Source: an uncultured Planctomycetaceae bacterium
Lineage (GTDB): Bacteria > Planctomycetota > Phycisphaerae > SM23-33
Length of the DNA: 64,000 bases
Direction of reading: 5' to 3'
NCBI GenBank assembly: GCA_964607575.1
Contig: CAZSLS010000004.1
Coordinates: 22,960 to 86,959 of the forward strand
Shown: in pieces, positions 45,088-61,498 of the stretch
How positions within the stretch are numbered: the first letter of the stretch is position 1
How the letters are laid out: each line of letters begins with the position of its first letter
The notes under the pieces: model-generated
Database searches by the model: none
What the model was told of the DNA's origin: nothing
What the model saw: the letters and a program-made list of their open reading frames with translations, nothing else
Made by a program: the position numbers and the translations under genes

Positions 45088-45612
45088 CTATTTGGGGATC
45101 TCAACGGGCATGGGCTGCTCTGCGGGCGATGAGTAGATGGCTTGCCCCGAAGGCGGGCGGTAACGGGCTATCAACCATACCTTCTCCGTTCGCGGAGGTA
45201 TTCTCCAAGGCAGGCGCAGCGAGTAACCCCAAAGTGCGCCGTATTGTCCTACGACCAGCTCGGAGAGTTCCTTGGCGCTGAACGTCCATGACAAGAACGG
45301 TTTGGTCGCATCGCTGAGTTTGTCGGGCTTGTCGCCCTCGTAAATCATTATGTCCACTTCGCCGTTGACGAGAACGGACTTGAGCCCGCCGCCGGTATCT
45401 CTGAAGAGCATGACCTGCGCGATAACGCCGTCAAAACCGGGCTTACCGTCCCAGTTGACGATGGCGCTTTCGGGAACGAACAGACCGATGCGGTCGGCAT
45501 GTGCGACCGGTGCGGGCACGCCTTTGTTCGTGGGCGGTGTGCATCCGTTCGACACCGCCGCCGATACGACAGCGATAACGACCAGGAAGTTTTTCAAAAC
45601 AGTCACGTGCAT
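45088..45612 (-). CDS. Lipoprotein immediately downstream of the secretin (candidate pilotin)
   Basis: Hydrophobic signal ending in a lipobox-like SNGC; starts 10 bp after the secretin stop. The pilotin role is inferred from position only. Confidence 0.6.
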   Translation of the reverse strand: MHVTVLKNFLVVIAVVSAAVSNGCTPPTNKGVPAPVAHADRIGLFVPESAIVNWDGKPGFDGVIAQVMLFRDTGGGLKSVLVNGEVDIMIYEGDKPDKLSDATKPFLSWTFSAKELSELVVGQYGALWGYSLRLPWRIPPRTEKVWLIARYRPPSGQAIYSSPAEQPMPVEIPK

Positions 45613-45622
45613 ACCGGTTGGA

Positions 45623-48600
45623 TCAGTCACTGGATAGTTCCTTATCAAAGTTGATTACTTTATTCGTTTTGGCGGGCCTTGTCGTTGGTCCCGCATCGGG
45701 CATTTTTCCGAGCGATTCAAGCGGTATGAGTTCGGTGGCGGCTCCGTCTGTCAGGGCCGATTTTTTGATTGGAAGCGGTAGGAGGTCCTTGTAGGGCCTC
45801 TGCTCACTGAGCCATTCGAGCAGTCCCTGGCGCCTCTTCTCGCTCAGGAGGTCCTTGCGTTTGACCTGCTTCCTGGTCTCGGCGTCGGATTCGGCGGTGG
45901 TTCTCTGTACGTATGGCGTGAGGACTATCAGCAACTCGCGGCGTTGCCTGATGACGGTGGTTGTCTTGAACAGTTCGCCGAGTATCGGCAGGTCGCCGAG
46001 GAACGGAACTTTCCGTTCGGTATTGTTGTCCTGGGATGTAATAAGCCCGCCGATGACGATTGTGTGTCCGTCCCTGACGGTAACGGTGGTGGTCGCTGAA
46101 CGATTGTCTACTACGATCGCGCTGACGCCTTCGCTTATCTCGACGCTGTCTGAGTCGGAGATAGAACTGATCTCGGCGCTGATCTCAAGCTTGATGTCGC
46201 CGTCGGGATTGATGCGCGGCGTGGTCTGCAGGAGGATGCCCACGTCCTCGTACTGGATCGTGTTGAACACCGAACCGGTCTCGGTGGCGCGGCTGTTGGT
46301 TATGAAGGGCACGCGCTGACCGACGTTGATCTCACCGGTCTGGTTGTCGGCGGTGAGTATCTGCGGGCGAGACAGAACTTCGAGGCGCCCTTCGGTCTGC
46401 AATGCGTGCAGGAACAGGTCGATATCGCCACCGCTCAGCGAGAAGCGGAAACCGCCGCTGGTGTTGAACGAACCTGCGACGCCGAAGTTCGTGCCTACCC
46501 TGCGGACCGTGCCGTTCGAACCGTTCCTGGCGGAGTGGTCCCACTCGAATCCGAGATCGGATCGTCCGGTGAGCGTTACTTCAGCCAGCAGCACTTTGAT
46601 GAGCACCTGGGGCAGGGGCTGGTCGAGTTCATCGATCATGGCCGAAATGGTCTTGAAGTAGCGCGGGCTGGCCGATAGCAGCAGGGTGTTCGTCGTTTCT
46701 TCGGCTACTATCGCCACTTCCTGCTCGAGCAATTTGTGAGCTGCCCCGAGGCCGTCGGTGCCTAGCGCTTGTGAGACGGTCTGGCGTTCCTGGTCCAGGA
46801 ACGATCTCAGCGCGGTTTGGATGTCGGCGGCCTGGGCGTTTCTCAGACGGTAGATTTTTGTCTCGCGTTCCTGTGCGGGCGAGGAGTCGAGTTCCTTGAT
46901 TACCGTACCGGCCAGTTCGACATACTGCTTGGTCCCTCCGACGAGCAGGCTGTTTGTTCGCGTGTCGACGGTTACCGTCAGTGCGCTCTGTTCGGCCGAA
47001 CCAAGGGTGGCTGAAACCTCGCCGTTCTTGCCAGCCGGTCGGGTGGTCGGCTTCAGGGTGTATTTGATTGACTTTGAATCCGCCGCGCCGGTCTGCTGCA
47101 GCCGGAAGAGCTGGGTGAGCACTTCGCCCATTCGGGCGGCGTCGGCGTTCTTCAGCGGGAAGACCTTGATTTCCGCCGCTCTCGGCGCGGTGTTGTCCAG
47201 CGCCTTTATGAGATTCGCCAGGAGCGGCATGTTTTCGACGGGCGCCGAGACGACCAGCGTGTTGTTTCTGCTGTCGGGCGTGATCAGGAGTCCTTCCTGC
47301 AGCGCTTTGGCGACCACCAGCTTACCGTCCTTGTCCTGTGTGACGAACTTCAGCATCGCCTGGCGGACGTTGGGATCGTCGATTGCGGACTTCGGTTTGG
47401 TTGTCAGCGTTTCCAGGAGTATCGTCGCGAGTTCACCTGCGTCGGCGCTCTTGAGTTCGAAGACGCGGATCTCGGTGATCCTGGCCCCCGAACCGGTGTC
47501 GAGTTGCTTGATCATGTCGGCGATTGACTTGAAGCTTTCACGGCTTCCGGTCACCAGGAGGGTGTTGGTGCGGGTGTCGGGTATGATGCTTGTCGGGAGG
47601 GACCGCCCGGAACTTCCGGAGGCCTGTTCGGCCTGGAGTTTGGCTTGATAGAGGCTGTTGAGCGTGTCGGCGAGGTTGGTTGCGCTGGCTTTCTTCAGCG
47701 GGAACGCCCGGATGTCGCCGGTCAGGGCGTCTTCGGCATCGACTTTTCGGATGATCTCCGCGATTACCGCGAAGTTTTCCTTGCTGGCCGAAACGATCAG
47801 CACGTTGGTTCGCGTGTCGACGGCGATGGCTACTTTTTCTCGATTTGCCAGTGCGGCGTTCGTGCCGGCGGCGATCGCTCCGGGCTTGTAGAGGCCCTGG
47901 GTTATCAGGCTGCTCAGCAGGGTCGAGACTCTCTGCGCGTCGGCGTGCTTCAGGGGGAACAATTTAACGATACCGGTTTCCATGGGCGGTTCGATATCGA
48001 CTTTCTTCAGCAGGCCTTCGATGAGCGTGAGGTTCTCCTTGTTGGCCGATATCACCAGCGCATTTGTAAGCGAATCGACAGAAACGTCCACGCGGTCCTG
48101 CGGGGCGGGTGTCGTGCCCGAAGGGGTCATGGAGACTAACCTGGCGGCGAATATCTCACGAATCATCGGCCCGACGACGCCCGCGTCATTGTGCTTCATC
48201 GGAACCACCACCAGCTTGACCGCCGGATCGGTGAGTTTGACGTCCAGATTCTTCAGCAGGCTCTTGAGCACCTTGGTGTCGTCGGTGTTGGCCGCCACCA
48301 GCAGGCTGTTGGTCCGCAGGTCCGGAAGGATAACCGGTTTCTGGCGGCGGATGTCGTCGGTGCGTGCGGCCTGGTAACGCTCGTTAAACAGGTTGCTCAG
48401 CGTCGTCGTGAGCGTCCCGGCGTTGGCTTCCTTCAGTGGAAACAGTTGTATCTGCCCGCTGAGCGCAGCGGGTTTGTCGTCGAGCTGTTCGGCGAGGTCC
48501 TTGACGATCTTGAATCCCTCCGCCGAACCGCCGACGATGAGGCTGTTGCTTCTGGCGTCTGCGACCACGATCACGCGGAGCGCTTCGGCATCTTTGATGC

Positions 48601-51600
48601 CGAGCGACTGCTGGCGGACCACGCGTGCGTCCATCATTGTCTGCAGCACGGACGACAGCGTGTCGGCCTCTGCGTTCTTCAGCGTTACCAGGCGGATGTC
48701 CCTGAGGTCTATCGGCGTCTTGCGGTCGAGGCTCTGCATCAGGTTCGTGAGCATCGTGAAGGTCTTGTCGCTGGCCGAAACGATCAGGCTGTTGGTACGA
48801 GTGTCGACGGTAACGGTGGGGCGGTCTTCCTGGCGGATCAGGCTCGCGTTGCTACCGCTGTAAAGTTCCTGAACAACCGTTTGCAGGCGCGTGGCGTCGG
48901 CGTTGATCAGCGGGAAAATGCGCACCGTGTTTAACGATCCGGCGCCGGTGATATCCATCTGGGTAATCACGTCGGAAATTATGGTCATCAGGTCCTTGCG
49001 TGCCGCGACGACCAGGATATTAGTAGCCGGGTCGGCCTGTATGGTGAAGGCGGCGCGGGTTTTGGGCTTGTCGGACGTGACGGTTTTCTTCTTCGCCGCG
49101 GCGGTTTGCAGTCGCGTGACGAACGTTCGCACGCCCGAGACGGCGGGGTCGTCCGTCGGCTCAGTGAATACGCCCCGCAGTACCGGAAGGAGGCGTGCGG
49201 CGTCGGCGTTCTTGAGTTTGAAGAGTTTGACCTCGGTGACGAACTTGTCGGCCGTGCGGTCGAGGTCCTTGATCAGAATCTCCGCTAGTGCGAGCGATTC
49301 GGCGAGACCGGCTATTACCAGCGTGTTGGTTCGCAGGTCGGCAGATACGTTCAGCCCGGCGGTGAGTGCCTTGCCCGAGGCGGATTTGGGCACGACCTTT
49401 CCGACGGTGGATGTTCCCGTCGGTCCTGCGAGTTTCTTGCCCTGCGTGTTGAATATGTCGTCGAGGATGCTTCTAACGGTTTCGGCGTCGGCCTTTTCGA
49501 GCCTGACGATTCGCACCAGCACGCCCTCGCCCACGGGTACGGTATCGAGCATTTCCACGATCGCCTTCATGGCCTTGAGATTGTCCGGCGTGGAGGTGAT
49601 CAGCAGGGAGTTTGACCCCTGTGCAGCCGGGGTTGCCGCGTCGGCGGATACTTTGATCGGCTTGGTCAGGTCCAGTTCGGGCAGTTGTTCCTTGAGGCCT
49701 CCACGCACCCTGAGGATTCGGATCTGCTCCTGCAGCGCGCGGGCCTCGGGGGTTACCACGTTGTTTGCGCTTGGACGGAGCATTTCGGTAAGAACGTCCG
49801 CCAGGCGTGTGGCGTCGGCTTTCTTCAGCGGGATTATCAGGACCTCGATTTTTTCAAACGCCGGGGGTTTGTCCAGACGCGTGATGATCTCGCCGATCTG
49901 CTCGAACAGCGTTTCGCGCGTGGTTACTATCAGCGATCGCGTGCGCTCGTCGGGGCTGATGTCGATTGACTGACCGCCGGCCTGTTTCTGCAATTGCGAG
50001 ATGAGTCCCTTCAGCGCCGGGAGTATCTTCGAGGGCGTTGTGTTCGTCAGCGGGAACAGTTTGAACTGCAGTTTCCCGGCGACCTCGACCTTGTCGAGCA
50101 CTTCTATTAGTGCTTCGACTTCCACCATCTTTTCCTTGGTGGCGGCGACCATCACCGTCTGGGTCTGCTGGATCGCGCTGACGGTGACCTCGTCTTCGGC
50201 TTTGGCCTGTCGCCCTCGGCTGCGGAACGCCGATGTCAGCGCCGAGGCCACCCGGACGGGATTGGCGTTCTTCAGCACGAACGCCTTGACGGTTCTCTTG
50301 GACGAGATCGCCGCCGCTTCCAGCGTTTTCACCAGCGCCTCGATCGCCTTGAAATCTTCGTCGGAGGCGTTGACGAGGATAGCTTTCTGCGAAGGCAGCA
50401 CGGTGGTTTCAACCTGCCCGCCGGTCGCAGGTGTCGCAGCTTTTTTCCCCCGCTGCCCCGGCGCTCCGCGCTTACCGGAGTTTCCGGACTGGTTGTAGAT
50501 CTGCTGTATGGCTTTGTCCACTTCTTCAGCGTCGGCGTGCTCGAGCGTTATCACTCGCAGCGTTCCGCGCGACGGCTTCATGTCTTCGACCTGTTTGACC
50601 CACTGGGATACCTGTGCGTACATCACTTCGCTGGTGGCCAGTATCAGCGCGTTTGCGCGGTCGTCGGCGGATACCGCCAGCGGTTCGACGCTGCGCTTCT
50701 CGCGCCGCGCCGCGGACACCTGCTGCTTGTACATGTTCGTGATGACCGAAGCGACCGACGAGGCGTTACCGTTCTTCAGCGGGATCACGAAGACCTGCTG
50801 GGCGGTTTTCAGCGCTGCCTGGTCGAGTTGCACTGCCATTTGCATCAACTGCCCGAGTTCGGCCGACGGACCGGTCATCACAATGGCGTTACTGCCCGCG
50901 TCGGCGGAAACGATCACCTGCTGGCTCGTCGACGCGGGCGATCTGCGGCCCCTTCCCCGACCGCCGCCGGTGGAACTCTGCCCGCTGCCGGCTGCAATCT
51001 TGCTCAGCACGGTCACCAGTTCGGTGGCTTTGGCGTTCTTGAGGAGTACGAATTCGGTCTTCCTGCCACCGGACTCTTCGGTATCGAGCTTGGCCAGGAG
51101 GTCCTCGACGGCCAGGAGGTTCTTCGGATTGGCGGTGACGATAATGCTGTTTGAATTCCCTTCAGCGACGACATTGACCATGTCGTCAGGTTCGATCCTG
51201 ACACCGCGTTGCGGAGCGAACGCCTGTGACAGCGCCGCAGCCACCGAAGAGGCCTGTGCGTGCTTGAGCGTCAGCAGCGTTCTCACCGATTTGCCCTGGG
51301 GCGTGGTGGCGTCGAGTTGGGCGGCCATTTCTTTGATCTTGGCGAACGTCTTCTCATCTGCTCGGACCAGCAGCATCCGTGAACCGGTGGCCGGTTCGAT
51401 AATCACGTTCTGCGGCGTGACCGAGCTGCCTCGCGAGCCTCTTCGGCGCGATCCGCCGGAGCTTCGCGCCTGCGAAGTGAAGACGCGCGTGAGCATCTCG
51501 GCGAGTTTGGTCGGGTCGGCGTTGCGGAGTGTGATCATCTGAATGGGGTACTTGGTGGCCGGCGCCTCGTCGATTTCCTTGAGAAGCAGGGCGATCTTCT

Positions 51601-54600
51601 TGTGGTCTTCTACCGATGCCTTGACCACGAGCGTGTTGGAGGAGCGGTCGGCGCTGATCCGAAGTGCTCCCGCCGTCGTCTTGCCTTTGCCTGTCCCGCC
51701 GCCCGTTGTTAGCGTTGCCGTCAGCGAGGTCGCAACTCCGGCGGCCTCCACGTTCTGGATTCGGTAGACCTTCACCGACAGGGCGTCTGTGGCCTGGGAG
51801 CTGTCTATCTGTTCGATGGTCTTGGCGATAAGTTCGTGTTTTTCCGCGGGCGCTGAGACCAGGACGGTGCGGCTTGTTTCCTGTGCGGTGATGACTATCG
51901 GCATATCACTGGCGGCGCCGCGGGTTGTCCTGCGGGTCGCGCCGCGAGTTGAGCCTCTGGTTCTCGCGGTTCCGGTCGAGCCGGAGGAGACAAATAGTTT
52001 CTGGAGTGTTTGGACAGTCTGCGTTATGTCCGCATGCTTCAGGGGGTACAGGCGAATCGTCGGGATTTTCGTCAGGGCGGCCGACTGGTCGAGTTCTTCG
52101 ATCAGCGTTTCGACGATCTTCATGGTTTCGGGCTGGGCCGACACGATGACGGAATTGGTGTTGCTGTTGGCGGTGACGCTCAGTTCGGTCTGGGTTGACG
52201 CCGGAGCCTGTGCATTGCCCGCCTGCATCGCGGCGCGAATCATTTCAGCACGCTGCTGCTGGGCGGACCTGCCTCTTCCGCCCCTTGACCTGGCGTTTGT
52301 CTGCGATTGCCTGTTACCGCTGGTTGACAGCTTGAACAGCTCTTTAAGGTTTGACGCCACTTCGGTTGCGTTGGTGTTCTTCAGGACGAATACACGAACT
52401 TCGGTCAGGACGGTTGCGTCCTTGTCGAGTTCTTTGACCAGCGGGTCGATTATCTCGAAGTCCATCGGTTTAGCCCGCACGATCAGGCTGGAGGTTCTCT
52501 GGTCGGCAACTACGGTGATAACCGGCGGCGGGATGACGGCGGGAGGCGCTGCGCCCCGTCCTCTCCCGGTATTCCTTGCCGCGGGCTGCTTTGGGGGGTT
52601 GAACAGATTCGACAGCGTCTTGGCGATTACCGTGGGGTTCCCGTGCTTGACTATGTAGGTTCGGAACTCCGCTTCGCCGCCGGTGGTGCTGTCGGAGAGG
52701 CGTTCGATCAGGTCGCTGACGTTCTCGAGTTCGGTTCGAGTGGCCGAGATGATAAGCGCGTTTGCGGCGGCGTCTACCGCGATGACGATCGGGGGCGCCT
52801 CGGCGTCTGCGGGCTGGGTGGTAGCCGCCGGTCGCGTCGTCGGTTCTCCGGGGGCGCCTTTCGGTCCGGGCGCGGCGCCGGTTGGTTTGTCCTTGCTTTC
52901 TGTGATGACGATCTTGGAATCTGACATCTGCCCGTAGACGCGGCGGATGACTTCCGCCATTTTAGCCGCCTGGACGCCCTTGAGCGGGACGACCTGGACT
53001 TGGATGCTGTTATCCATCGCCGCTTCGTCGAGATCCTCGATGACCTTTTCCATCGTCTTGATGTCGGCGTCCTTGCCGATGATGGTGATGGCGTTGGCGA
53101 AGATGTCCGACTCGATCACGGGCTTGTCGGCCCCGCGGCGCTCGGCGTACATTGCGGTGAGTTTGTCGGCTACGTCGGTGGCGATGGCGTTTTCCAGCCA
53201 GATGTACCGGACGATCTTGAGCGAGCGTTCGGGCGCCTTGTCGAGATTATCGAGTATCTGTTCGACCAGCGCGAAGTGCGAGGCGGTCGTCGAAACTATC
53301 AGCGAGTTGGTCCGCTCGTCGGCGGTTATGCTGAACGGCGGGGGGGTTATGTTCCTGTTACCGCGGGCATACTGCCTGATCATGTCCTGGAACAGCTTTC
53401 CGACCGATTTGGCCAGTTCGCTTGCCTCGCCGTTCTTGAGCGGGAATATCTTCACGCTCAGCGCCGAACTGATCCCGCCGGAGTCGAGCTGCATTATCAT
53501 CGCCTTGACCGCGGGGACCTCGGAGGCGGGTCCCCTGATCAGGACGCTGTTGGAGTTGGGTTCGGGCGTGACGGTAACGGTTTCTTCGTTGGTGGTCGGA
53601 GCGGGGAATCTTGACCCGCGCCGGGTAGGACGCCTGCTGGCCGCCTGCTTGGCCAGAGACGCGTTGATCGCCTCGGCCAGTGTTTGGGCCTGTGCGTTCT
53701 TGAGCTTGATGATCTCGATTACGATGTCGGATTCGGGCTTCCTGGCGTCGAATGTTTCGATAAGTTCACCGGCCAGCGCCAGGACCTCCGCGCTGCCCTG
53801 AACGATGACGATGTTCTCCTTCGACATCGCCGAGACGCGCACCGTCGACGATGTCGGCGTCGTGGCGCCCCTCGAACCCCTGCCCCGGCCCCTGCGCGAT
53901 CTGGGCGGGGCGGAACTGCTGGAGAACTGCTGGGTGAGCATGGTTTGCAGCACGGGTACGACGTCGTCGGCCTTGGCGTTCTTGAGGATGAACGACTTGG
54001 TCTGTGATCTGATCGACGCCTTCTCGGCGACCTTCTTGATCAGCTTCTCGATCTCCACGAACTGCTTTGCGGTAGCGGCCACCAGCAGTTGATTTGCCAT
54101 GCTGTCGGCCTGGAAACGCGCTTCGGGCTCGGTGCTCTTGCGCGATCTGTTCTGTTTGGCGAACAGTCTGGTCATCGATTCGGCGATTTCCGCGGCGCTG
54201 GAGTTCGTAAGTTCGTAGGTTCGGGTCTCCACTACTTCGGGCCCCGTACCGGCGTCGAGCGTGGTTATGAGTTGTGCGATTTCTTCGATTGTGTTCTTGG
54301 GCGCGTCCACCAGGACGGCGCGATCGTTAGGCGCGGCGCTTACCACGACGCGGTTTGGATCCTTTGGCTTTTCCGGGGCGGGTGGCATGTAATAGTCGTA
54401 GTAAGACCTTCGCCTGCGCTCGCTCTTCTTTTCGATCGGATAGAGCTGCTGGAGCATTGTGACGATTTCCGCGGCCGAGACGTTCTTGACCGGAAGGAGG
54501 CGCGTTTCGCGAACCTGTTCTTTGATGCTCTCGTCGAGCTTGGCGATTATCTCATTGATCATTTCCCACTTGCTCTCGGGCGCCCGGATCATCAGCGCCC

Positions 54601-57283
54601 CGGTGTGCTCATCTCCGCGGATGAACACGTCGGGCGTCTCGCCGCGCCTCTTTGGCGGGAGCATTTCCTGGAGCATCGTTGCGACTTTGTTTGCGTTGCC
54701 CGATTTGAGGTTGACTATCCTGATCGGGTTGATCTGGGCGGACTTTTCGACGTCGATCGACTTGACCAGCGCTGCGATTGCTTCGTGGTCCTGCGGGCTC
54801 GCCGAGATAACCAGCGCGTTGCTGTCGGTGTTGAATGAGATGGTCACCGGAACGCCCGGGGTGGCGCTGACCTTGGGTACCGACGGCGCCGAGTAGGAGG
54901 AATACCGCGAGTACCTGTACGAAGAGTAGGACGAATAGCTCGGTCTGGACGACTGGCTCCCCGTACCGTAGATTCCCTGCAGAGTGGCCGCGAGATCCTT
55001 GGCGTTTGCATATTTGAGCTTCAGCACGCGCGTTTCGATTTGACCCTTGGTGAGCTGGTCGAGTTTCTTGATCATCTCGTCGAGCATCTTCCATTTCTTC
55101 TCTGATGCCCTTATCAGCAGCGTCCCGGTCTGGTTGTCGCCCTGTATGAATACGTCGGGCGCCTCGCCTTCGCGTTTTGGAGGCAGCATCTTGGAGAGCA
55201 TTCCCGCTACTTTATTGGCGTCGGCGCTCTTGAGGTGGACTATCCGGATCGGATCGACTTCGGCGGCTTTCTCGACGTCGATCGACGTTATCAGTGCGGA
55301 TATGGAGTCGAGGTCTTCGGCGCTGGCGGAGATCACCAGCGAGTTCGACGACGTGTTATACGCGATGCTGACCGGGGTGATACCGGGTGTTTCGTAGCGT
55401 GATGACCTTGTCGACGGATAGAGTGTTTTGAGCGTGTTTGCCAGTTCCCTGGCGTCTGCGAACTTGAGTTTGATTACGCGAGTCGGCGGTACGGCCGACG
55501 AATCGGCGATCTCTGTCAACTTGTCGATCGCCGCTTTGACCTTCTTCCAGTGTGCCGGCGGTACGGAGATCATCAGCGAGTTGGAGGAGTTATCCGCCTC
55601 GACGCGGAAACCGGGTATGCCTGTCGACTGTCCGCTTCTCGCGGCGAAGAGGTTTTCCAGAGCTTTGTCGAGTATTTCGGCGTTTCCGCTCTTGAGCTGT
55701 ATGACGTGAATTTCGTACGCGTCGGCCTCCGGTGCGCGGTCGAGTTCCTTGATGACGCCTGCGGCCGCTTCGACGTCAGTCGGTGAGCCGACGACGATCA
55801 GTGAGTTTGTGCGCCCGTCCGCACTGACCGACAGCGAGCCTCTTAAGACGCCCTTTGCGTCAGGTTTCGATGTTGCCTTGGTAACGATCTCGGCGATTTG
55901 CGACGCGTCGGCCGTCTTCAGCGGGAAGATACGCATCCCGCCGGCGAGAGTCACGCCCTTGTCGAGCTTCTCGATGAGTTTTGCGACTTTGTCGATATCA
56001 TCCGCCGTCCCGGAAACGATAATACGATTTCCGACCTCGTCGGCGACCACCTTGGTGGTGTTCTTGGACGTGGAGGGTATTCGTACCGGTCTGCGGGACG
56101 ATGAGGAGCTTGATGATTTGGGAGTGTAGTAGCGAACCGTCGTACCGAGCAGATCGGTGATCATCTTCGCTACGGTGGCGGCCTTGGCGTTCTTCAGCTC
56201 GAAGACCCGCACTTCGCTTTCGCCGACGCTTTCCTTGGTGTCGAGTTGTTTGAGCATAGCTTCGGCCATTGCGATCTTGTCGGGCATTCCGACGAGGATA
56301 ACCGAGTTGGTTCTCTTGTCGGGATTGACGGTAACCACGTTTTTCGCATCCGCCGGTGTGGGCACGGCGCGACGATATCTTTCGGAGTAGACGGTCTTGG
56401 AGAATATGCCCATGGTTCCGAAAAGTTTGCCCACGATCGTACTGGCTTCGGCGGCCGTCGCATTCTCTAGCACGACGGTATGTATCTCCTGCTTCAACTG
56501 CTGCTCGTCGCCGTCCAGCGCCGACAGCATTTCATTGATTCGGCGGATGTTGGCGAGGTTGTCGGTGATGATGACTCCGCGTCCCCGGGGCATGGGCACG
56601 ATCGACCCGTACGCCGAAACCATTCGCACGACCGATTTGGATGCGGCGTCGGCGTCCAGGTTTTTCAGGGGCAGGAGTACGGTGGCGATTTCACTTCCGC
56701 GGAGCTTGGCGGTTTTGTCCAGCCCGCGGATGATCTTCAGGGGCATCTCCGGGAGTTTGGCAAGCGGGGTCAACTGCATGAACCGCCCGAATTCCATCAG
56801 GCGGAATCCGCGCATCGCCAGGATGATGTTGAGCGTGTCCAGCGCCTCTTCGTAGGTGTAGGGCTCGGCATCCATGAAGGTCAGCTTGCCTTCGACGGCG
56901 ACCTCGCCGATCAGGGGCTTGTTGGCCATCTGGGCGAATCGCTTGACCACGTCGGCGCATGAAACATCGTGATAATTGAAGCGAACCGTATTCGTTGCGG
57001 GCCTTGCGATCTTTATCGCCGGACGGGTGGTCGGCAACTTCGCTGCGACCTTTTCCGCCGGCCGCGTCGTCGGCGCTTTGCCCGCGACCTTTTCTGCCGG
57101 TCGTGTCGTCGGCGCCTTGTCCGCGACCTTTGCTGCCGGTCGTGTCGTCGGCGCCTTGTCCGCGACCTTTGCTGCCGGTCGTGTCGTCGGCGCCTTTTTG
57201 GCGGCCGACGGGGCGGCAAGCAGTGGTAAGGCCGCTACTACGCTCGCGGCGATGATGGCACAAGTTATCTGCAGATATCGCAT
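45623..57283 (-). CDS. gspD: Giant GspD-like secretin (3886 aa): N0 + ~39 secretin N-domains + secretin domain
   Basis: Signal peptide; N0 (VRFNYHDVS..DVVKRFAQMA); repeated 'V+.LKNA.A..+A..L..+F...V.AD.RTNSL+V.A...+..+I..LD' units; C-terminal secretin domain (PQVLIKVLLAEV, LSRPQILTADNQTGEINVGQRVPF, YEDVGILL..TPRIN, GHTIVIGGLI, KVPFLGDLPILGELF, RELLIVLTP). Confidence 0.92.
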   Translation of the reverse strand: MRYLQITCAIIAASVVAALPLLAAPSAAKKAPTTRPAAKVADKAPTTRPAAKVADKAPTTRPAEKVAGKAPTTRPAEKVAAKLPTTRPAIKIARPATNTVRFNYHDVSCADVVKRFAQMANKPLIGEVAVEGKLTFMDAEPYTYEEALDTLNIILAMRGFRLMEFGRFMQLTPLAKLPEMPLKIIRGLDKTAKLRGSEIATVLLPLKNLDADAASKSVVRMVSAYGSIVPMPRGRGVIITDNLANIRRINEMLSALDGDEQQLKQEIHTVVLENATAAEASTIVGKLFGTMGIFSKTVYSERYRRAVPTPADAKNVVTVNPDKRTNSVILVGMPDKIAMAEAMLKQLDTKESVGESEVRVFELKNAKAATVAKMITDLLGTTVRYYTPKSSSSSSSRRPVRIPSTSKNTTKVVADEVGNRIIVSGTADDIDKVAKLIEKLDKGVTLAGGMRIFPLKTADASQIAEIVTKATSKPDAKGVLRGSLSVSADGRTNSLIVVGSPTDVEAAAGVIKELDRAPEADAYEIHVIQLKSGNAEILDKALENLFAARSGQSTGIPGFRVEADNSSNSLMISVPPAHWKKVKAAIDKLTEIADSSAVPPTRVIKLKFADARELANTLKTLYPSTRSSRYETPGITPVSIAYNTSSNSLVISASAEDLDSISALITSIDVEKAAEVDPIRIVHLKSADANKVAGMLSKMLPPKREGEAPDVFIQGDNQTGTLLIRASEKKWKMLDEMIKKLDQLTKGQIETRVLKLKYANAKDLAATLQGIYGTGSQSSRPSYSSYSSYRYSRYSSYSAPSVPKVSATPGVPVTISFNTDSNALVISASPQDHEAIAALVKSIDVEKSAQINPIRIVNLKSGNANKVATMLQEMLPPKRRGETPDVFIRGDEHTGALMIRAPESKWEMINEIIAKLDESIKEQVRETRLLPVKNVSAAEIVTMLQQLYPIEKKSERRRRSYYDYYMPPAPEKPKDPNRVVVSAAPNDRAVLVDAPKNTIEEIAQLITTLDAGTGPEVVETRTYELTNSSAAEIAESMTRLFAKQNRSRKSTEPEARFQADSMANQLLVAATAKQFVEIEKLIKKVAEKASIRSQTKSFILKNAKADDVVPVLQTMLTQQFSSSSAPPRSRRGRGRGSRGATTPTSSTVRVSAMSKENIVIVQGSAEVLALAGELIETFDARKPESDIVIEIIKLKNAQAQTLAEAINASLAKQAASRRPTRRGSRFPAPTTNEETVTVTPEPNSNSVLIRGPASEVPAVKAMIMQLDSGGISSALSVKIFPLKNGEASELAKSVGKLFQDMIRQYARGNRNITPPPFSITADERTNSLIVSTTASHFALVEQILDNLDKAPERSLKIVRYIWLENAIATDVADKLTAMYAERRGADKPVIESDIFANAITIIGKDADIKTMEKVIEDLDEAAMDNSIQVQVVPLKGVQAAKMAEVIRRVYGQMSDSKIVITESKDKPTGAAPGPKGAPGEPTTRPAATTQPADAEAPPIVIAVDAAANALIISATRTELENVSDLIERLSDSTTGGEAEFRTYIVKHGNPTVIAKTLSNLFNPPKQPAARNTGRGRGAAPPAVIPPPVITVVADQRTSSLIVRAKPMDFEIIDPLVKELDKDATVLTEVRVFVLKNTNATEVASNLKELFKLSTSGNRQSQTNARSRGGRGRSAQQQRAEMIRAAMQAGNAQAPASTQTELSVTANSNTNSVIVSAQPETMKIVETLIEELDQSAALTKIPTIRLYPLKHADITQTVQTLQKLFVSSGSTGTARTRGSTRGATRRTTRGAASDMPIVITAQETSRTVLVSAPAEKHELIAKTIEQIDSSQATDALSVKVYRIQNVEAAGVATSLTATLTTGGGTGKGKTTAGALRISADRSSNTLVVKASVEDHKKIALLLKEIDEAPATKYPIQMITLRNADPTKLAEMLTRVFTSQARSSGGSRRRGSRGSSVTPQNVIIEPATGSRMLLVRADEKTFAKIKEMAAQLDATTPQGKSVRTLLTLKHAQASSVAAALSQAFAPQRGVRIEPDDMVNVVAEGNSNSIIVTANPKNLLAVEDLLAKLDTEESGGRKTEFVLLKNAKATELVTVLSKIAAGSGQSSTGGGRGRGRRSPASTSQQVIVSADAGSNAIVMTGPSAELGQLMQMAVQLDQAALKTAQQVFVIPLKNGNASSVASVITNMYKQQVSAARREKRSVEPLAVSADDRANALILATSEVMYAQVSQWVKQVEDMKPSRGTLRVITLEHADAEEVDKAIQQIYNQSGNSGKRGAPGQRGKKAATPATGGQVETTVLPSQKAILVNASDEDFKAIEALVKTLEAAAISSKRTVKAFVLKNANPVRVASALTSAFRSRGRQAKAEDEVTVSAIQQTQTVMVAATKEKMVEVEALIEVLDKVEVAGKLQFKLFPLTNTTPSKILPALKGLISQLQKQAGGQSIDISPDERTRSLIVTTRETLFEQIGEIITRLDKPPAFEKIEVLIIPLKKADATRLADVLTEMLRPSANNVVTPEARALQEQIRILRVRGGLKEQLPELDLTKPIKVSADAATPAAQGSNSLLITSTPDNLKAMKAIVEMLDTVPVGEGVLVRIVRLEKADAETVRSILDDIFNTQGKKLAGPTGTSTVGKVVPKSASGKALTAGLNVSADLRTNTLVIAGLAESLALAEILIKDLDRTADKFVTEVKLFKLKNADAARLLPVLRGVFTEPTDDPAVSGVRTFVTRLQTAAAKKKTVTSDKPKTRAAFTIQADPATNILVVAARKDLMTIISDVITQMDITGAGSLNTVRIFPLINADATRLQTVVQELYSGSNASLIRQEDRPTVTVDTRTNSLIVSASDKTFTMLTNLMQSLDRKTPIDLRDIRLVTLKNAEADTLSSVLQTMMDARVVRQQSLGIKDAEALRVIVVADARSNSLIVGGSAEGFKIVKDLAEQLDDKPAALSGQIQLFPLKEANAGTLTTTLSNLFNERYQAARTDDIRRQKPVILPDLRTNSLLVAANTDDTKVLKSLLKNLDVKLTDPAVKLVVVPMKHNDAGVVGPMIREIFAARLVSMTPSGTTPAPQDRVDVSVDSLTNALVISANKENLTLIEGLLKKVDIEPPMETGIVKLFPLKHADAQRVSTLLSSLITQGLYKPGAIAAGTNAALANREKVAIAVDTRTNVLIVSASKENFAVIAEIIRKVDAEDALTGDIRAFPLKKASATNLADTLNSLYQAKLQAEQASGSSGRSLPTSIIPDTRTNTLLVTGSRESFKSIADMIKQLDTGSGARITEIRVFELKSADAGELATILLETLTTKPKSAIDDPNVRQAMLKFVTQDKDGKLVVAKALQEGLLITPDSRNNTLVVSAPVENMPLLANLIKALDNTAPRAAEIKVFPLKNADAARMGEVLTQLFRLQQTGAADSKSIKYTLKPTTRPAGKNGEVSATLGSAEQSALTVTVDTRTNSLLVGGTKQYVELAGTVIKELDSSPAQERETKIYRLRNAQAADIQTALRSFLDQERQTVSQALGTDGLGAAHKLLEQEVAIVAEETTNTLLLSASPRYFKTISAMIDELDQPLPQVLIKVLLAEVTLTGRSDLGFEWDHSARNGSNGTVRRVGTNFGVAGSFNTSGGFRFSLSGGDIDLFLHALQTEGRLEVLSRPQILTADNQTGEINVGQRVPFITNSRATETGSVFNTIQYEDVGILLQTTPRINPDGDIKLEISAEISSISDSDSVEISEGVSAIVVDNRSATTTVTVRDGHTIVIGGLITSQDNNTERKVPFLGDLPILGELFKTTTVIRQRRELLIVLTPYVQRTTAESDAETRKQVKRKDLLSEKRRQGLLEWLSEQRPYKDLLPLPIKKSALTDGAATELIPLESLGKMPDAGPTTRPAKTNKVINFDKELSSD
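57019..57197. repeat. 39-bp coding tandem repeat (APTTRPAAKVADK, about 5 copies) at the secretin N-terminus
   Basis: The unit GCCGGTCGTGTCGTCGGCGCCTTGTCCGCGACCTTTGCT recurs in tandem. Confidence 0.88.
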
Positions 57284-57312: not shown

Positions 57313-58413
57313 TTATTTTTCAAAACTCACACTCTGTGGTCTTGTTGTCGGCTTGTGGCTGGTCGGCTCCGTGTCGCCGGCGACGCGAAGTGCCGGTGGC
57401 AGGTCAGGGCCTTTGAGGATGCGTTTGGCGTTAACGTACTGGTTGCCCTCGATCGCCCAGTAGTCCGAGTCGATCCTGACGATCACTCTCGCCGGGCTCA
57501 ACAGTTCGGGCTTGTCCGGATCGGGCAGTTGTCTGTAGTCAACCATGACGATTTTCCACCCCATCAGCTTCTCGCCTTCTTTGTATTTGTGGACCGCGCC
57601 GGTCTTGTCGATTTCATTGACCACCCATATCTCGGGTGCGCCGCGGAACATCGGAAGTCCGCATATCCTGTATCTGGGCTTCGGTCCTGCCGGCGGTTTG
57701 GGCGGATCTGCTTTTCGTACGGGCGGCTTGGCCTTGACGACAACCGGCGGCTTGGGCGGGGCGACGTACTTGATGTAGCGGCGGAAGATGTCTCGCTCCG
57801 GAATAACGTTGTAGCGCTTGCGGCGCTCGGATTTCATATCGATCGCGAGTTTCATGTCGGCCGGACGTGTCTTTGCAAACTGCGGTCCTTTTTTCGCCAC
57901 CAGCGACAGCGCTACGTAGTCGAACTCGACCCTGAACGGTCCGTCCCTTTCTCGCGGCGAGATCGCCAGATTCTCGATCCGATGCAGTACGGTATCCTCT
58001 TCGAGCATGTACAGGAGGTTCAGGATATGCTCCATCTTTCCGCTCTTGACGACGTGCCATGCAGTTTCCCGCAGATCGCCGGAACTCTTGGTATGTCCCG
58101 CATTGACTCCCTTGCCTTCGCTGGTCAGTCCGCTGCGGTCGAGCGCCGCCATCAGGTACCCGAAGGTTGCGGCGCGCACTTCGTCATCGTCCCTTCCAAA
58201 AGTACGAGCGGCGAGATCCTCGAGGTGGTCTTTGTTGCTTTTCAGGGACTTCGCTGTCTTCGCGAGATCGGCGAGGCTCTTCTTCGCTTTGCGAATGCTA
58301 TTATCGAGTGTTCCGGACGGGGACAGGAACAGACCGTTTATGAATGCGCCAAGGACGATAACACATATGATCCCGCCAGTAATTATCGCCAGTATCTTTT
58401 CGCGATTGTTCAT
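57313..58413 (-). CDS. GspM/PilO-like protein with C-terminal GspC-HR/PilP-like beta domain
   Basis: MNNREKILA + TM + coiled coil; PilO-like GKMEHILNLLYMLE...RIENLAISP; Pro-rich linker; beta domain with YKEGEKLMGWKIVMV. Confidence 0.6.
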   Translation of the reverse strand: MNNREKILAIITGGIICVIVLGAFINGLFLSPSGTLDNSIRKAKKSLADLAKTAKSLKSNKDHLEDLAARTFGRDDDEVRAATFGYLMAALDRSGLTSEGKGVNAGHTKSSGDLRETAWHVVKSGKMEHILNLLYMLEEDTVLHRIENLAISPRERDGPFRVEFDYVALSLVAKKGPQFAKTRPADMKLAIDMKSERRKRYNVIPERDIFRRYIKYVAPPKPPVVVKAKPPVRKADPPKPPAGPKPRYRICGLPMFRGAPEIWVVNEIDKTGAVHKYKEGEKLMGWKIVMVDYRQLPDPDKPELLSPARVIVRIDSDYWAIEGNQYVNAKRILKGPDLPPALRVAGDTEPTSHKPTTRPQSVSFEK

Positions 58414-60098: not shown

Positions 60099-61498
60099 CA
60101 GTCGCCGGCTTGCTCCTGTAGGTTTTCCAGGGCAAACGGCATGCCCAGGGAGGTCAGGTCGCGGAGATAAAGGATCCGCGGCGAGGTCGACGCCAGATCC
60201 ACAATCGCTTCGAGCACACAGTAACGCCCGCTGTTTATACCGTAGCCAACCACCTGAATACGATACTGGAAACCGCGCGCCGTTAACAGCGGTGCTATCG
60301 TCTTGAATTTGTCCGCCCCGACCAGATCGTTGGCGTACAACCATGCGGTGGTCGCTTTTTCTTCCGGAGTGAGATCCGCGCGGATCGAAACGATCCGGTC
60401 GACCAGGTCGGCGCTGTCGCCGCCGAGGACAGCCAACAACGCTTCGGGCGGGGCGGTATTGACGTTAATCGCCGCACTCCAGGCCGTTGAGCTGCTGGAT
60501 ATCGTCAGCTTGTCGAGTACCTTGGCCAGATCGCCCGCCGAGTTGACCCCCGACTGGCGAGTCTCGCTCCTGCCGGAGCTGCCCGAACTCCGGGACGTGT
60601 AGCTCATGTTCAGCAACTCGCTGGGATGGGTAAATTTTTTACCGCCGGTCTGGCAGAACTCGATGAACTCGGCCGTCGTCCTGCCTACCGCCCTGCGAAG
60701 CGCCCTGGTGTCCAACCGCCCGTTGATATTGATGCGTGCCTGGTTCTCGTTATCGACGTTGCGATCGTAGGCAATTGTCGTCAGCAGCGACCGCAGCCCC
60801 TGGTTGAGTATTCCGTCGCCGTCGTCGTCGGGGTGGGTGTCTTCGCCGTCGTCCTCATTCGGATCGAGCAGACCGTTGAAGTTGGCGTCCTCGCCGTATA
60901 CTAGTGTCCCGTCGAATCCCTTGACGAGCAGCAGTTCTTCTACGGTCATCAGCGACCCGTTTCGGATGGCGTAGGGATGGGCCAACTGGTTGTAGTACTC
61001 CTGCTCGGCGCCGTTTTCCTGGGGCTCGTCGTCCGAGTCGCGGAAATCGATCAGGCAGTCGACCAGTTCGGCGGTCATGTTCGGAAGGCCTTCGAGCACC
61101 TTGCGCGAGGCGGTGTTGATGTTGATCTTCCCGGCGGTATCGCTTACCCCGTAGCGGATTTCCGTATCGTCCTGGTCGTTATAGGCGTAGATCGTGAAGT
61201 ACCACTCGTCGCTACCGTCGTTGCAGACGAACTGGTCGGCGTAGAGGTCGGGGTTGTCGTAATTACCGCCCTCGGTCGGCGGTTGGGCCAGTATCGCCAT
61301 CGCGTGTTTGATTCCGCTGAAGGCGGTAGACCAGGCCTGGTCGCCCCGCACGTACGAGCCCGAAGCGGCGACTTCAGCCTGCATGCGGTACATCACAGAG
61401 GCGGCGATCATCGTTGATATCGCGCTGACGACCAGGATGGCGTAGAGCACCATGCCCGCCCGTCTTCTGCACCTGCGGATTGTCAGGGGGTAAACCAT
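60098..61498 (-). CDS. gspK: Type II secretion minor pseudopilin GspK
   Basis: RRAG|MVLYAIL (no E5); GKININTA; IDFRDSDD; GAEQEYY; TVEELLLVKG; acidic Ca-binding loop EDANFNGLLDPNEDDG; INVNTAP. Confidence 0.88.
   Translation of the reverse strand: MVYPLTIRRCRRRAGMVLYAILVVSAISTMIAASVMYRMQAEVAASGSYVRGDQAWSTAFSGIKHAMAILAQPPTEGGNYDNPDLYADQFVCNDGSDEWYFTIYAYNDQDDTEIRYGVSDTAGKININTASRKVLEGLPNMTAELVDCLIDFRDSDDEPQENGAEQEYYNQLAHPYAIRNGSLMTVEELLLVKGFDGTLVYGEDANFNGLLDPNEDDGEDTHPDDDGDGILNQGLRSLLTTIAYDRNVDNENQARININGRLDTRALRRAVGRTTAEFIEFCQTGGKKFTHPSELLNMSYTSRSSGSSGRSETRQSGVNSAGDLAKVLDKLTISSSSTAWSAAINVNTAPPEALLAVLGGDSADLVDRIVSIRADLTPEEKATTAWLYANDLVGADKFKTIAPLLTARGFQYRIQVVGYGINSGRYCVLEAIVDLASTSPRILYLRDLTSLGMPFALENLQEQAGD

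What the first reader, a model, noticed from the sequence alone, without database searches (positions are those of the whole stretch)
45623..57283. Giant secretin with ~39 stacked N-domains: a candidate periplasm-spanning secretion tube
Seen: one uninterrupted 3886-aa ORF with a signal peptide, N0, about 39 secretin N-domain repeats (manual count, from IATVLLPLKNLDA to ETKIYRLRNAQA) and an intact C-terminal secretin domain. Known: proteobacterial GspD has only N0-N3, and each N-domain forms one ring of the oligomer. Inference: if these N-domains also stack as rings of a few nm each, the result is a conduit on the order of 100 nm, which would suit the enlarged, invaginated periplasm of Planctomycetota. 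Long secretins do appear in planctomycete annotations, but I know of no structural or functional study of one this long.
Basis: partly seen in the sequence, partly recalled or inferred. Interest (0 to 1): 0.92.

Follow-up and report, generated by a model that had tools for sequence, protein, structure and literature searches.

The report
Giant secretin with 39 N-domains
A marine Phycisphaerae bacterium encodes a 3,886-residue outer-membrane secretin with about 40 ring-building modules instead of the usual four; it belongs to a large, apparently unstudied family that may build a secretion tube 100-200 nm long.

Summary
Window 45623..57283 (-) is one uninterrupted 3886-aa ORF. It has a signal peptide, a 13-aa tandem-repeat linker, N0, N1, 38 further full-length Secretin_N domains (39 N1-type domains in all), an intact secretin pore domain and a 93-aa tail.

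It is not an assembly artefact. The repeats are only 60-77% identical as DNA, and independent assemblies give the same 38-domain body.

It closes a complete T2SS operon, gspE-F-G-H-I-J-K, pilMN-like, pilO/gspM::HR-like, gspD. Only a small conserved ORF (P0124) lies downstream.

It is not unique. I found 623 database proteins of 2137-6801 aa. The 121 I examined carry 23-64 N-domains. They are named Phycisphaerae or Planctomycetota wherever a source gives a name.

New here:
- Inter-domain spacing is fixed: 9-11 aa in 4677 of 5028 linkers. It matches the GspD N2-N3 boundary to within one residue.
- Each domain has a positional orthologue: 3670 of 3791 steps are collinear.
- The neighbouring gene carries a GspC-HR/PilP-like domain that could dock N0.

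These points favour an ordered stack of rings roughly 120-200 nm long, but no oligomer or tube has been shown. Ten literature searches found no study of such secretins. Verdict: a new variant of a known kind; interest 0.72.

The parts
45623..57283 (-). Giant gspD-type secretin gene, 3886 aa (P0001). The mature protein is about 415 kDa with pI 9.35.
57212..57283 (-). Probable Sec signal peptide (aa 1 to about 24), judged by eye.
   Evidence: Sequence; no predictor was run.
57018..57196 (-). Tandem repeat of 39 nt (13 aa, APTTRPAAKVADK-like), 4.6 copies. It forms a Pro/Thr/Lys-rich linker between the signal peptide and N0. A second assembly has one copy fewer.
56792..56977 (-). N0 domain (aa 103-164).
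   Evidence: Pfam PF21305 at 26.8 bits (cut-off 27). Aligns to PilQ and XcpQ N0-N1.
56513..56689 (-). N1 domain (aa 199-257), the first and most divergent Secretin_N-type domain.
46622..56482 (-). Array of 38 full-length N-domains (aa 268-3554). Each is 61-103 aa, and they are separated by 9-12-aa linkers.
   Evidence: [quoted passage not shown]
46622..49837 (-). Conserved pore-proximal core, domains 27-38 (aa 2483-3554). Each has a positional orthologue in 113-119 of 119 homologues.
49544..49837 (-). Domain 27 (aa 2483-2580). It has a positional orthologue in all 119 homologues and scores among the best conserved (score/self 0.67; domains 31-33 score 0.70-0.71). It has a 38-aa insertion in the alpha1-beta2 loop.
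45905..46405 (-). Secretin pore domain (aa 3627-3793).
   Evidence: PF00263 E 2.5e-50; TIGR02517 best stretch aa 3334-3798
45626..45904 (-). C-terminal tail (aa 3794-3886) ending in a PTTRPA motif. It sits where the S-domain sits in T2SS secretins. Function unknown.
   Evidence: the S-domain analogy is recalled, not tested
57313..58413 (-). P0122, 366 aa: TM helix, coiled coil, PilO/GspM-like fold, Pro-rich disordered linker, and a C-terminal GspC-HR/PilP-like beta domain (aa 247-329). It is the candidate inner-membrane dock for the N0 ring.
   Evidence: found upstream of 16 of 27 giant-secretin loci
58410..60344 (-). P0123: PilM-like actin-fold domain, TM helix, a short periplasmic part and an Arg/Gly/Ser-rich tail. 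It is equivalent to GspL or a PilM-PilN fusion. The true start is probably downstream of the first ATG.
60098..61498 (-). GspK-like minor pseudopilin.
61502..62266 (-). GspJ-like minor pseudopilin.
62263..62730 (-). GspI-like minor pseudopilin.
   Evidence: 30.9 bits, below the cut-off of 44.35
62699..63412 (-). GspH-like minor pseudopilin.
63434..63907 (-). GspG major pseudopilin.
   Evidence: TIGR01710 99.5 bits against a cut-off of 88.85; Pfam T2SSG
45088..45612 (-). P0124, a small protein with a hydrophobic N-terminus followed by Cys (a possible lipoprotein). It lies directly downstream of the secretin. Candidate accessory protein or pilotin; it matches no known family.
   Evidence: found downstream of 11 of 27 distant giant loci and 4 of 4 close ones

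Best explanation
This is the outer-membrane secretin (GspD) of a complete type II secretion system. Its periplasmic part has been lengthened from the usual N0-N3 to N0 plus 39 N-domains.

Proposed mechanism:
- Like solved secretins, the protein would oligomerise (12-15 copies, about 5-6 MDa).
- Each N-domain would then form one ring, and the 40 rings would stack through short, GspD-like linkers.
- The result would be an ordered conduit roughly 120-200 nm long.
- At the far end the secretin domain forms the gated pore in the outer membrane.
- At the near end the N0 ring would be held at the inner-membrane platform by the HR/PilP-like domain of the neighbouring PilO/GspM-like protein P0122.
- The GspG-K pseudopilus, driven by GspE, would work inside this conduit to expel folded exoproteins.

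Shown here: the domain inventory and count, the N-domain fold, the linker regularity, the positional orthology, the operon, and the size of the family.

Inferred only: oligomerisation into rings, a continuous tube, its length, the N0-HR contact, and the link to a wide planctomycetal periplasm.
For: 1. Identity as a secretin:
- Secretin_N x 38, Secretin and N0.
- TIGR02517 GspD at 1348.8 bits against a cut-off of 351.
- N0+N1 align to PilQ and XcpQ.

2. Fold:
- The AF2 model of three consecutive domains (22-row alignment) has pLDDT 77.7 and three beta-alpha-beta-beta-alpha units.
- The top Foldseek hits are all ring-forming T2SS secretins: EpsD, GspD, ExeD and PulD, E 1e-10 to 8e-9.

3. Stack-like spacing:
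- 4677 of 5028 inter-domain gaps in 121 giant secretins are 9-11 aa, and 4954 are 7-13 aa.
- All 37 gaps in this protein are 9-12 aa.
- The domain boundary aligns to the N2-N3 boundary of E. coli GspD (5wq7, a 15-chain ring structure) with a one-residue difference.

4. Each position in the stack is individually conserved:
- Paralogous domains within the protein are far apart (mean local score 58 against self-scores of 300-490).
- Reciprocal-best domains between this protein and 119 homologues are collinear in 3670 of 3791 steps.
- Domains 27-38 are found in 113-119 of 119 homologues.

5. Both ends have an anchor:
- The pore domain is intact.
- P0122 carries a PilO/GspM fold (Z 10.3 to 2rjz).
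- It also carries a C-terminal domain matching GspC-HR from the GspC-GspD complex (3oss_C, Z 6.5, rmsd 2.1, 59 aa), GspB, PilP and PulC-HR (Z 5.0-6.0).

6. System context:
- GspE scores 640.4 against a cut-off of 630.25, and GspG scores 99.5 against 88.85. GspF, H, I, J and K all have a T2SS family as best hit.
- At least gspF and gspG lie upstream of the giant gene in 5 of 5 relatives checked. The full gspE-to-pilO::HR order was seen in 2 of them (G389, G210).

7. Precedent: the six N-rings of Thermus PilQ span its wide periplasm as a channel about 35 nm long (PMC5745081 and PMC4463427, passages read).
Against: - No oligomer, ring or tube was demonstrated here or in any paper I found.
- In the AF2 monomer the inter-domain linkers are the weakest parts (pLDDT under 50 at residues 79-81 and 161-163) and pTM is only 0.37. 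The relative orientation of domains is therefore undefined in isolation.
- The same genome holds ordinary-length secretins with open frames of 645, 536, 1051 and 318 aa. These must work across the same envelope, so periplasm width alone does not require this length.
- Domain number ranges from 23 to 64 among relatives. If length matches the envelope, this implies nearly three-fold differences in periplasm width.
- The alpha1-beta2 loops are long (up to 48 aa), low-complexity and strongly cationic (net +96 per protomer). If they face the lumen they would clutter a conduit.
- A pseudopilus would need to grow to 100 nm or more per stroke.
- The HR-like match has middling Z-scores (5.0-6.5), and its binding to N0 was not tested.
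- The width of the periplasm in these uncultured bacteria is unknown.
Confidence: 0.6

Rival explanations
1. Partly ordered leash. Only the conserved pore-proximal rings (roughly domains 27-38) stack as a tube. The variable N-proximal domains, with their Arg/Gly/Ser-rich loops, stay flexible. They would act as an extensible tether that keeps the inner-membrane platform connected to the pore while the planctomycetal inner membrane moves or invaginates.
For: - There is a conservation gradient. Domains 27-38 have orthologues in 113-119 of 119 homologues, with score/self of 0.51-0.71. Domains 1-8 have them in 40-107 of 119, with 0.32-0.48.
- The RG/RS-rich loops are concentrated in domains 2-24.
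- Linkers have low pLDDT and the monomer model has a low pTM.
- Thermus PilQ shows hinge flexibility at N4 (PMC5745081 passage).
Against: - The linkers of the N-proximal domains are just as uniform (9-12 aa) as those of the core.
- The N-proximal domains are still collinear orthologues rather than freely shuffled repeats.
- Flexible tethers usually have variable Pro/Gly-rich linkers, which are not seen between these domains.
Confidence: 0.22
2. Envelope ruler or strut. The main role of the long rigid oligomer is architectural. It would set or hold a species-specific distance between inner and outer membrane, with secretion secondary or restricted to the usual pore function.
For: - Domain number is constant among the nine closest orthologues (38 in eight, 40 in one) but ranges from 23 to 64 across the family.
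- Length scales strictly with domain number (89.5 aa per domain, r = 0.98).
- Both ends have plausible membrane anchors.
- Length-setting envelope proteins such as Lpp in E. coli are known (recalled, not checked here).
Against: - The gene is always embedded in a complete T2SS operon with ATPase, platform and pseudopilins. This argues for a working secretion machine.
- There are no data on copy number per cell or on envelope dimensions.
Confidence: 0.1
3. Conduit for a true pilus or for uptake, not for classical type II secretion. The machine would be a type IV-filament system whose fibre runs through the long channel. It might serve adhesion, DNA uptake or polymer uptake.
For: - The platform proteins look more like PilM/PilN/PilO/PilP than GspL/M/C.
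- GspE also scores 591 bits on the PilB model.
- The ATPase carries an MshEN c-di-GMP-binding domain, as in MSHA pilus systems.
- The closest structural precedent, Thermus PilQ, serves pili and DNA uptake.
Against: - GspE and GspG pass the T2SS equivalog cut-offs, whereas the PilB model is below its cut-off (591 against 675.65).
- A full GspH-I-J-K set of minor pseudopilins is present.
- The secretin passes the GspD model.
- No PilT-type retraction ATPase was seen in the operon. The rest of the genome was not searched for one.
Confidence: 0.12
4. Artefact. The ORF would be an assembly expansion of repeats or a dead gene.
For: - The genome is a 462-contig MAG.
- No RNA evidence was available.
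Against: - The repeats are only 60-77% identical as DNA.
- There is no stop codon in 11.6 kb.
- Orthologues from independent assemblies keep the same architecture.
- Each domain shows purifying conservation.
- Independent runs cover the gene evenly without joints or indels.
Confidence: 0.01

Closest known systems
T2SS secretin GspD/PulD/EpsD (cryo-EM structures 5wq7, 5wq8, 5zdh, 6i1y, 6hcg)
   Same: - The C-terminal secretin pore domain is present.
- N0 is followed by beta-alpha-beta-beta-alpha N-domains.
- The inter-domain boundary has the same length as N2-N3.
- The gene sits in a gspE-K operon.
- These structures are the best sequence and fold matches.
   Different: - It has 39 N1-type domains instead of three (N1-N3), and is 3886 aa against about 650 aa.
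- The alpha1-beta2 loops are long, cationic and low-complexity.
- A 13-aa tandem-repeat linker precedes N0.
- No recognised pilotin or S-domain was identified.
Thermus thermophilus PilQ (six stacked rings N0-N5, 13-mer, channel about 35 nm long)
   Same: Extra N-domain rings lengthen the secretin so that it spans a wide periplasm. The authors describe it as 'exceptionally long' (PMC5745081 and PMC4463427, passages).
   Different: - It has six rings against about 40 here.
- It is a type IV pilus and DNA-uptake machine, not a T2SS.
- Its linkers are irregular (a 17-residue N3-N4 linker and a gap of about 20 A), against uniform 9-12-aa linkers here.
GspC HR domain / PilP / GspB (secretin-N0-binding beta domains; 3oss, 6hcg chain e, 2ivw, 4wfw)
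   Same: The C-terminal domain of the neighbour P0122 (aa 247-329) superposes on them (Z 5.0-6.5, rmsd 2.1-2.5, 59-63 aa). As in GspC and PilP, it follows a Pro-rich linker.
   Different: - Here it is fused to a PilO/GspM-like protein rather than being a separate GspC or a PilP lipoprotein.
- There is no sequence-family match.
- The Z-scores are middling, and binding to N0 is untested.
Database annotations 'secretin N-terminal domain-containing protein' and 'type II secretion system protein D' in Phycisphaerae and Planctomycetota MAGs
   Same: These are direct homologues of 2301-6165 aa with the same architecture.
   Different: They carry automatic names only. I found no paper that describes them, in 10 searches of the held library.

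Membership tests
Secretin superfamily (PF00263) | C-terminal secretin pore domain | tested here: met
   E 2.5e-50 and 170.8 bits against a cut-off of 27.5, covering profile positions 1-168 of 169 at aa 3627-3793.
Secretin superfamily | Periplasmic N-domains with the beta-alpha-beta-beta-alpha ring-building fold | tested here: met
   - 38 Pfam Secretin_N stretches.
- The AF2 model shows three beta-alpha-beta-beta-alpha units.
- Foldseek top hits are GspD-family N1-N3.
Secretin superfamily | Homo-oligomeric ring of 12-15 subunits | tested here: inconclusive
   The one multimer job gave no verdict (see Tried and rejected). Solved homologues have 13-15 chains.
T2SS secretin GspD (TIGR02517, equivalog) | Whole-protein score above the curated cut-off | tested here: met
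   It scores 1348.8 bits against 351.35. The total is inflated by 20 repeated stretches, but the best stretch covers model positions 126-595 of 600 at aa 3334-3798. The other secretins in the genome stay below this cut-off.
T2SS secretin GspD | N0 domain at the N-terminus | tested here: met
   - PF21305 scores 26.8 bits, 0.2 below its cut-off.
- Residues 95-270 align as N0+N1 to PilQ 3jc8_Qa (E 1.5e-5) and to XcpQ and GspD N0-N1 (E 0.004-0.01).
T2SS secretin GspD | Encoded with the T2SS ATPase, platform and pseudopilins | tested here: met
   - GspE and GspG score above their equivalog cut-offs.
- GspF, H, I, J and K have a T2SS family as best hit, below cut-off.
- gspF and gspG lie upstream of the giant gene in 5 of 5 relatives; the full gspE-to-pilO::HR order was seen in 2 of them.
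T2SS secretin GspD | S-domain with a cognate pilotin lipoprotein | not tested
   A 93-aa C-terminal tail and a conserved small downstream protein (P0124) exist. Neither matches a known family.
T2SS secretin GspD | N0 bound by the HR domain of GspC | tested here: inconclusive
   An HR/PilP-like fold is present in the neighbour P0122 (Z 5.0-6.5). The contact itself was not modelled.
Type IV pilus secretin PilQ (TIGR02515, subfamily) | Score above the cut-off, together with a PilB/PilT/PilMNOP context | tested here: inconclusive
   - The protein also passes this subfamily model (453 against 284 bits), and the platform proteins are PilM/O/P-like.
- The ATPase fails the PilB cut-off (591 against 675.65), and GspG-K pseudopilins are present.
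- No AMIN domains were seen.

The most novel reading that the evidence does not exclude
Giant secretins would be the longest homo-oligomeric protein channels known. They would be rigid tubes of 5-10 MDa and 100-300 nm, made of 24-65 individually specialised rings. The tube would join the inner-membrane T2SS motor directly to the outer-membrane pore across the enlarged periplasm of Phycisphaerae. Ring number would act as a genetically encoded ruler for envelope width. The cationic Arg/Gly/Ser-rich loops (about +96 per chain, roughly +1,400 per 15-mer) would form a functional lining or coat, for example a selective brush in the lumen or a contact with cell-wall polymers.
Probability: 0.3. Interest if true: 0.88.

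Novelty: new variant of a known kind. Interest (0 to 1): 0.72.

Why it matters
Secretins are textbook gated channels with three to six periplasmic rings. A whole bacterial class carrying versions with 23-64 rings would change ideas on several points:
- how long a secretion conduit can be;
- how a pseudopilus piston works over 100 nm or more;
- how Planctomycetota bridge their unusual envelope.

The prediction is simple and testable. Tube length, and possibly periplasm width, should scale with N-domain number. The fixed linker and the positional orthology reported here also give a defined set of constructs for cryo-EM.

Tried and rejected
- Multimer modelling. One complex-prediction job used four copies of the three-domain segment with a 22-row alignment. 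It scored 0.35, 0.35 and 0.27 against controls of 0.00, with the mark at 0.42. The verdict was 'no answer', so I use it neither for nor against ring formation.
- Expression. The look-up of sequencing runs listed no RNA holder. This is no evidence either way.
- Read support. Read laying used Logan contigs only. They are short and none spans the gene. X3, X4 and X1 show no joints or indels. The low-depth relative X5 shows two joints with short sides (21 and 34 letters), which I discount as coming from a related strain or from repeats.
- Misassembly or pseudogene: rejected.
- P0122 and P0124 match no Pfam or NCBIfam family.
- The Atlas look-up of P0124 gave only unnamed clusters.
- Foldseek on the whole P0122 model saw only its PilO-like half. 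The HR/PilP-like half appeared only with VIA-align wide.
- The search for related loci on genome contigs returned only four close relatives and one unrelated 27%-identity hit. The survey was therefore done with the genome search.
- The first loop analysis was uninformative because the self-built HMM models the loop as match states. It was redone by HMM position.
- In L013 the longest frame was an antisense one. This was corrected.
- Orientation of the cationic loops (lumen or outside) could not be tested, because no PDB coordinates were available in the script box.
- Literature. Ten searches found nothing on giant planctomycetal secretins. 'secretin' as a word start also matches 'secreting', so one search was noisy. 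Three papers were read as passages only: PMC11131199, 10.1101/2023.11.21.568195 and PMC3422733. They mention secretins or gspD only in passing. Subscription journals and supplements were not visible.
Full report
OBSERVATION. The ORF is real and lies exactly where stated: 45623..57283 on the minus strand, 3886 codons with an ATG start and no stop. GC content (0.57-0.62) and skews are even across it. Pfam reports Secretin_N in 38 separate stretches (E = 0, 1337 bits). It also reports one Secretin domain at aa 3627-3793 (E 2.5e-50) and N0 at aa 103-164 with 26.8 bits against a cut-off of 27. NCBIfam's GspD equivalog scores 1348.8 bits against a cut-off of 351.35, with its best stretch at aa 3334-3798 covering model positions 126-595 of 600.

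An HMM built iteratively from the protein's own repeats finds 38 full-length domains between aa 268 and 3554. It also gives a weak hit at aa 203-257. That weak region is N1: residues 95-270 align as N0+N1 to M. xanthus PilQ (E 1.5e-5) and to XcpQ/GspD (E 0.004-0.01). The layout is therefore signal peptide (judged by eye), a 13-aa x 4.6 tandem-repeat linker, N0, N1, 38 more N-domains, the secretin domain and a 93-aa tail.

NOT AN ARTEFACT.
- The DNA repeats are 60-77% identical. The closest pair is a two-domain duplication at 70% over 299 nt.
- The only near-identical array is the 39-nt N-terminal repeat. A second assembly of the same population differs from the window's protein by exactly one such unit and is otherwise identical.
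- Nine close orthologues from ENA, JGI and NCBI assemblies are 3852-4052 aa, with 38 domains in eight and 40 in one.
- Contigs of two runs not flagged as the source cover all 30 bins at depth 20-51, with no indels or joints.

CONTEXT. On the same strand, reading from upstream towards the secretin, the genes are:
- GspE, which has an MshEN domain and lies beyond the window on the same contig (L038);
- a 23S-rRNA-IVP-like small protein, then GspF;
- GspG, H, I, J and K;
- a PilM-like protein with a TM helix (P0123);
- P0122, then the giant secretin, then the small protein P0124.

GspE (640.4 against 630.25) and GspG (99.5 against 88.85) pass the T2SS equivalog cut-offs. The PilB model does not (591 against 675.65).

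P0122 matches no sequence family, but its AF2 model (18-row alignment, pLDDT 71.7) shows five parts. These are a TM helix, a coiled coil, a PilO/GspM fold (Z 10.3 to PilO 2rjz; also EpsM, PulM, XcpY and EpsL), a disordered Pro-rich linker, and a beta domain at aa 247-329. The matches listed for that beta domain are the secretin-binding HR family: GspC from the GspC-GspD complex (3oss_C, Z 6.5, rmsd 2.1, 59 aa), GspB (Z 6.0), PilP (Z 5.4 and 5.0) and PulC-HR (Z 5.0). These Z-scores are middling, so this is a lead rather than proof.

P0122-like genes lie just upstream of 16 of 27 giant-secretin loci from relatives. P0124-like genes lie just downstream of 11 of those 27, and of 4 of 4 close relatives. 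Short flanks limit both counts. In 5 of 5 relatives for which I fetched about 16 kb upstream, at least gspF and gspG precede the giant gene. In G389 and G210 the whole order gspE to pilO::HR is conserved.

THE FAMILY.
- A search restricted to proteins of 2137-6801 aa found 623 with E <= 0.001 among 1825 scored. The best 120 are 2301-6165 aa. Where a source names them, they come from Phycisphaerae or Planctomycetota MAGs and are called 'secretin N-terminal domain-containing protein' or 'type II secretion system protein D'.
- With the self-built HMM these 120 plus the query carry 23-64 N-domains (median 41). Length = 89.5 x n + 442 aa, r = 0.98.
- Among the 150 best 50%-identity representatives of the C-terminal 416 aa, 102 are 2000 aa or longer, 23 are 1000-2000 aa and 25 are shorter. 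Of the 48 under 2000 aa, 14 do not start with M and so are probably fragments.
- At least 20 of 40 close relatives have open frames of 2152-5263 aa.
- In an even sample of 400 other genomes of the phylum, giant frames (3474-5073 aa) appeared in 9. Eight of these are among the 23 same-class genomes. One is from another class: G389, which has 54% C-terminal identity and the full operon.
- The window's genome also holds ordinary secretins, with open frames of 645, 536 (cut by a contig end), 1051 and 318 aa. The three that I scored (645, 536 and 318 aa) do not reach the GspD cut-off.

ANATOMY THAT BEARS ON MECHANISM.
(a) Spacing. The gap between successive domain envelopes is 9-11 aa in 4677 of 5028 cases and 7-13 aa in 4954. 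The 47 gaps of 48 aa or more look like single missed domains. A profile of the three-domain segment aligns to E. coli GspD (5wq7, 15 chains) across the N2-N3 boundary with a one-residue difference.
(b) Individuality. Domains within the protein are distant paralogues: the mean local score is 58 and the best is typically 80-120, against self-scores of 300-490. The exception is the duplicated pair of domains 5-6 and 7-8. Even so, reciprocal-best domains between this protein and 119 homologues are collinear in 3670 of 3791 steps. Domains 27-38 are present in 113-119 of 119. Domain 27, which has a 38-aa insertion, is matched in all 119 and is among the best conserved. Length variation is concentrated in the N-proximal and middle parts.
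(c) Fold. The AF2 model of domains 30-32 shows three beta-alpha-beta-beta-alpha units (pLDDT 77.7). pTM is low (0.37) and the linkers are weak. The top Foldseek hits are all T2SS secretin ring structures.
(d) Loops. The alpha1-beta2 loop varies from 6 to 48 aa (median 22). It is rich in Arg (11.9% against 3.8% in the cores), Gly (10.5% against 2.6%) and Ser. The loops carry net +96 per chain, whereas the folded cores carry net -31.

MECHANISM. The best-supported reading is an ordered stack of about 40 rings formed by a 12-15-mer (415 kDa per chain, so 5-6 MDa). It would be anchored in the outer membrane by the secretin domain. At the inner membrane, the HR-like domain of P0122 would hold N0.

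The length estimate is an extrapolation. Thermus PilQ, with six rings plus the cone, is about 35 nm long (PMC4463427 passage), which gives at most about 5 nm per layer. GspD rings are about 3 nm each; this figure is recalled, not checked. Forty rings would then give roughly 120-200 nm. That Planctomycetota have an enlarged periplasm is also recalled (Boedeker et al. 2017), not checked here.

The points against this reading are set out in the Against line. The most important are that no oligomer has been shown, that ordinary secretins coexist in the same cell, and that the loop orientation is unknown. The main rival is a partly ordered leash.

COMPARISON AND NOVELTY. By every testable criterion this is a member of the secretin/GspD family. 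It differs in degree, with ten times the usual number of N-domains. It also has a PilO::HR fusion partner and cationic loops. [quoted passage not shown] Ten searches of the held library found no description of the giant Phycisphaerae secretins. Subscription journals and supplements were not visible, so prior mention cannot be excluded. I rate it a new variant of a known kind. It is widespread in nature and structurally extreme, and cryo-ET could test it directly.

Noticed in passing
window 57018-57196, 45626-45700 and 57313-57360; G000 contigs C155, C239, C145, C140, C74, C30, C5, C47, C195, C38: A short motif, PTTRP(A), occurs 47 times in the genome's open frames of 150 aa or more; my rough chance estimate, made by hand and not from a call, is about 2. 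Eight of these are in the giant secretin. Eighteen of the 47 lie in the last 80 residues of their frame. These include the C-terminal tails of the giant secretin, of P0122 and of the 645-aa secretin on C155. It looks like a lineage-specific tail motif of envelope proteins. Function unknown.
   Followed up: partly
window 57018-57196: The 39-nt (13-aa) tandem repeat after the signal peptide differs by exactly one unit between the window and a second assembly of the same population. The two proteins are 3886 and 3873 aa and are otherwise identical.
   Followed up: yes
window 46622-56482 (loops) and 58410-58500 (tail of P0123): The alpha1-beta2 loops of the N-domains are Arg/Gly/Ser-rich and carry net +96 per chain. 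The periplasmic C-terminal tail of the PilMN-like P0123 is also RG/RS-rich (…SGYRRSGGSGRSRYGGSRR). Low-complexity cationic segments therefore appear in two parts of the same machine. Their orientation and role are unknown.
   Followed up: partly
window 49544-49837: Domain 27 has a positional orthologue in all 119 homologues and is among the best conserved domains (score/self 0.67, against 0.70-0.71 for domains 31-33). It carries a 38-aa insertion in the alpha1-beta2 loop. It marks the start of the core shared by all family members, and could be a docking or wall-crossing ring.
   Followed up: partly
window 54522-54820 and 55047-55345: This is the only recent internal duplication: a two-domain block (domains 5-6 and 7-8), 70% identical over 299 nt. 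Most homologues have two extra domains between this protein's domains 35 and 36.
   Followed up: yes
L038:2767-3216 (G000:C4, outside the window): A 149-aa 23S-rRNA-intervening-sequence-like four-helix protein (PF05635, E 8e-38) sits between gspE and gspF. Upstream of it, GspE carries an MshEN c-di-GMP-binding domain (NF053729, 45.9 bits against a cut-off of 38).
   Followed up: no
L013 (G008:C20:19000-35800): A 5186-codon open frame lies on the strand opposite the 5039-aa giant secretin gene. It has no N-domain hits. It is probably a codon-usage effect (the sense strand has no TTA, CTA or TCA codons) rather than a gene.
   Followed up: no
L031, L040 and L045 (G389:C1): G389 is a 9.2-Mb single-contig genome of another class of the phylum. 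It carries a 4537-aa giant secretin with the full gspE-to-pilO::HR operon. Its C-terminal identity to this window (54%) is higher than that of several same-class giants (38-40%). This may be lateral transfer or an uneven evolutionary rate.
   Followed up: partly
window 40027-43164 and 35838-38993: Downstream of the secretin end of the operon, on the other strand, lie two large genes. One is a 1045-aa Ser/Thr kinase with TPR and LRR repeats. The other is a 1051-aa protein with a PEP-CTERM anchor motif.
   Followed up: no
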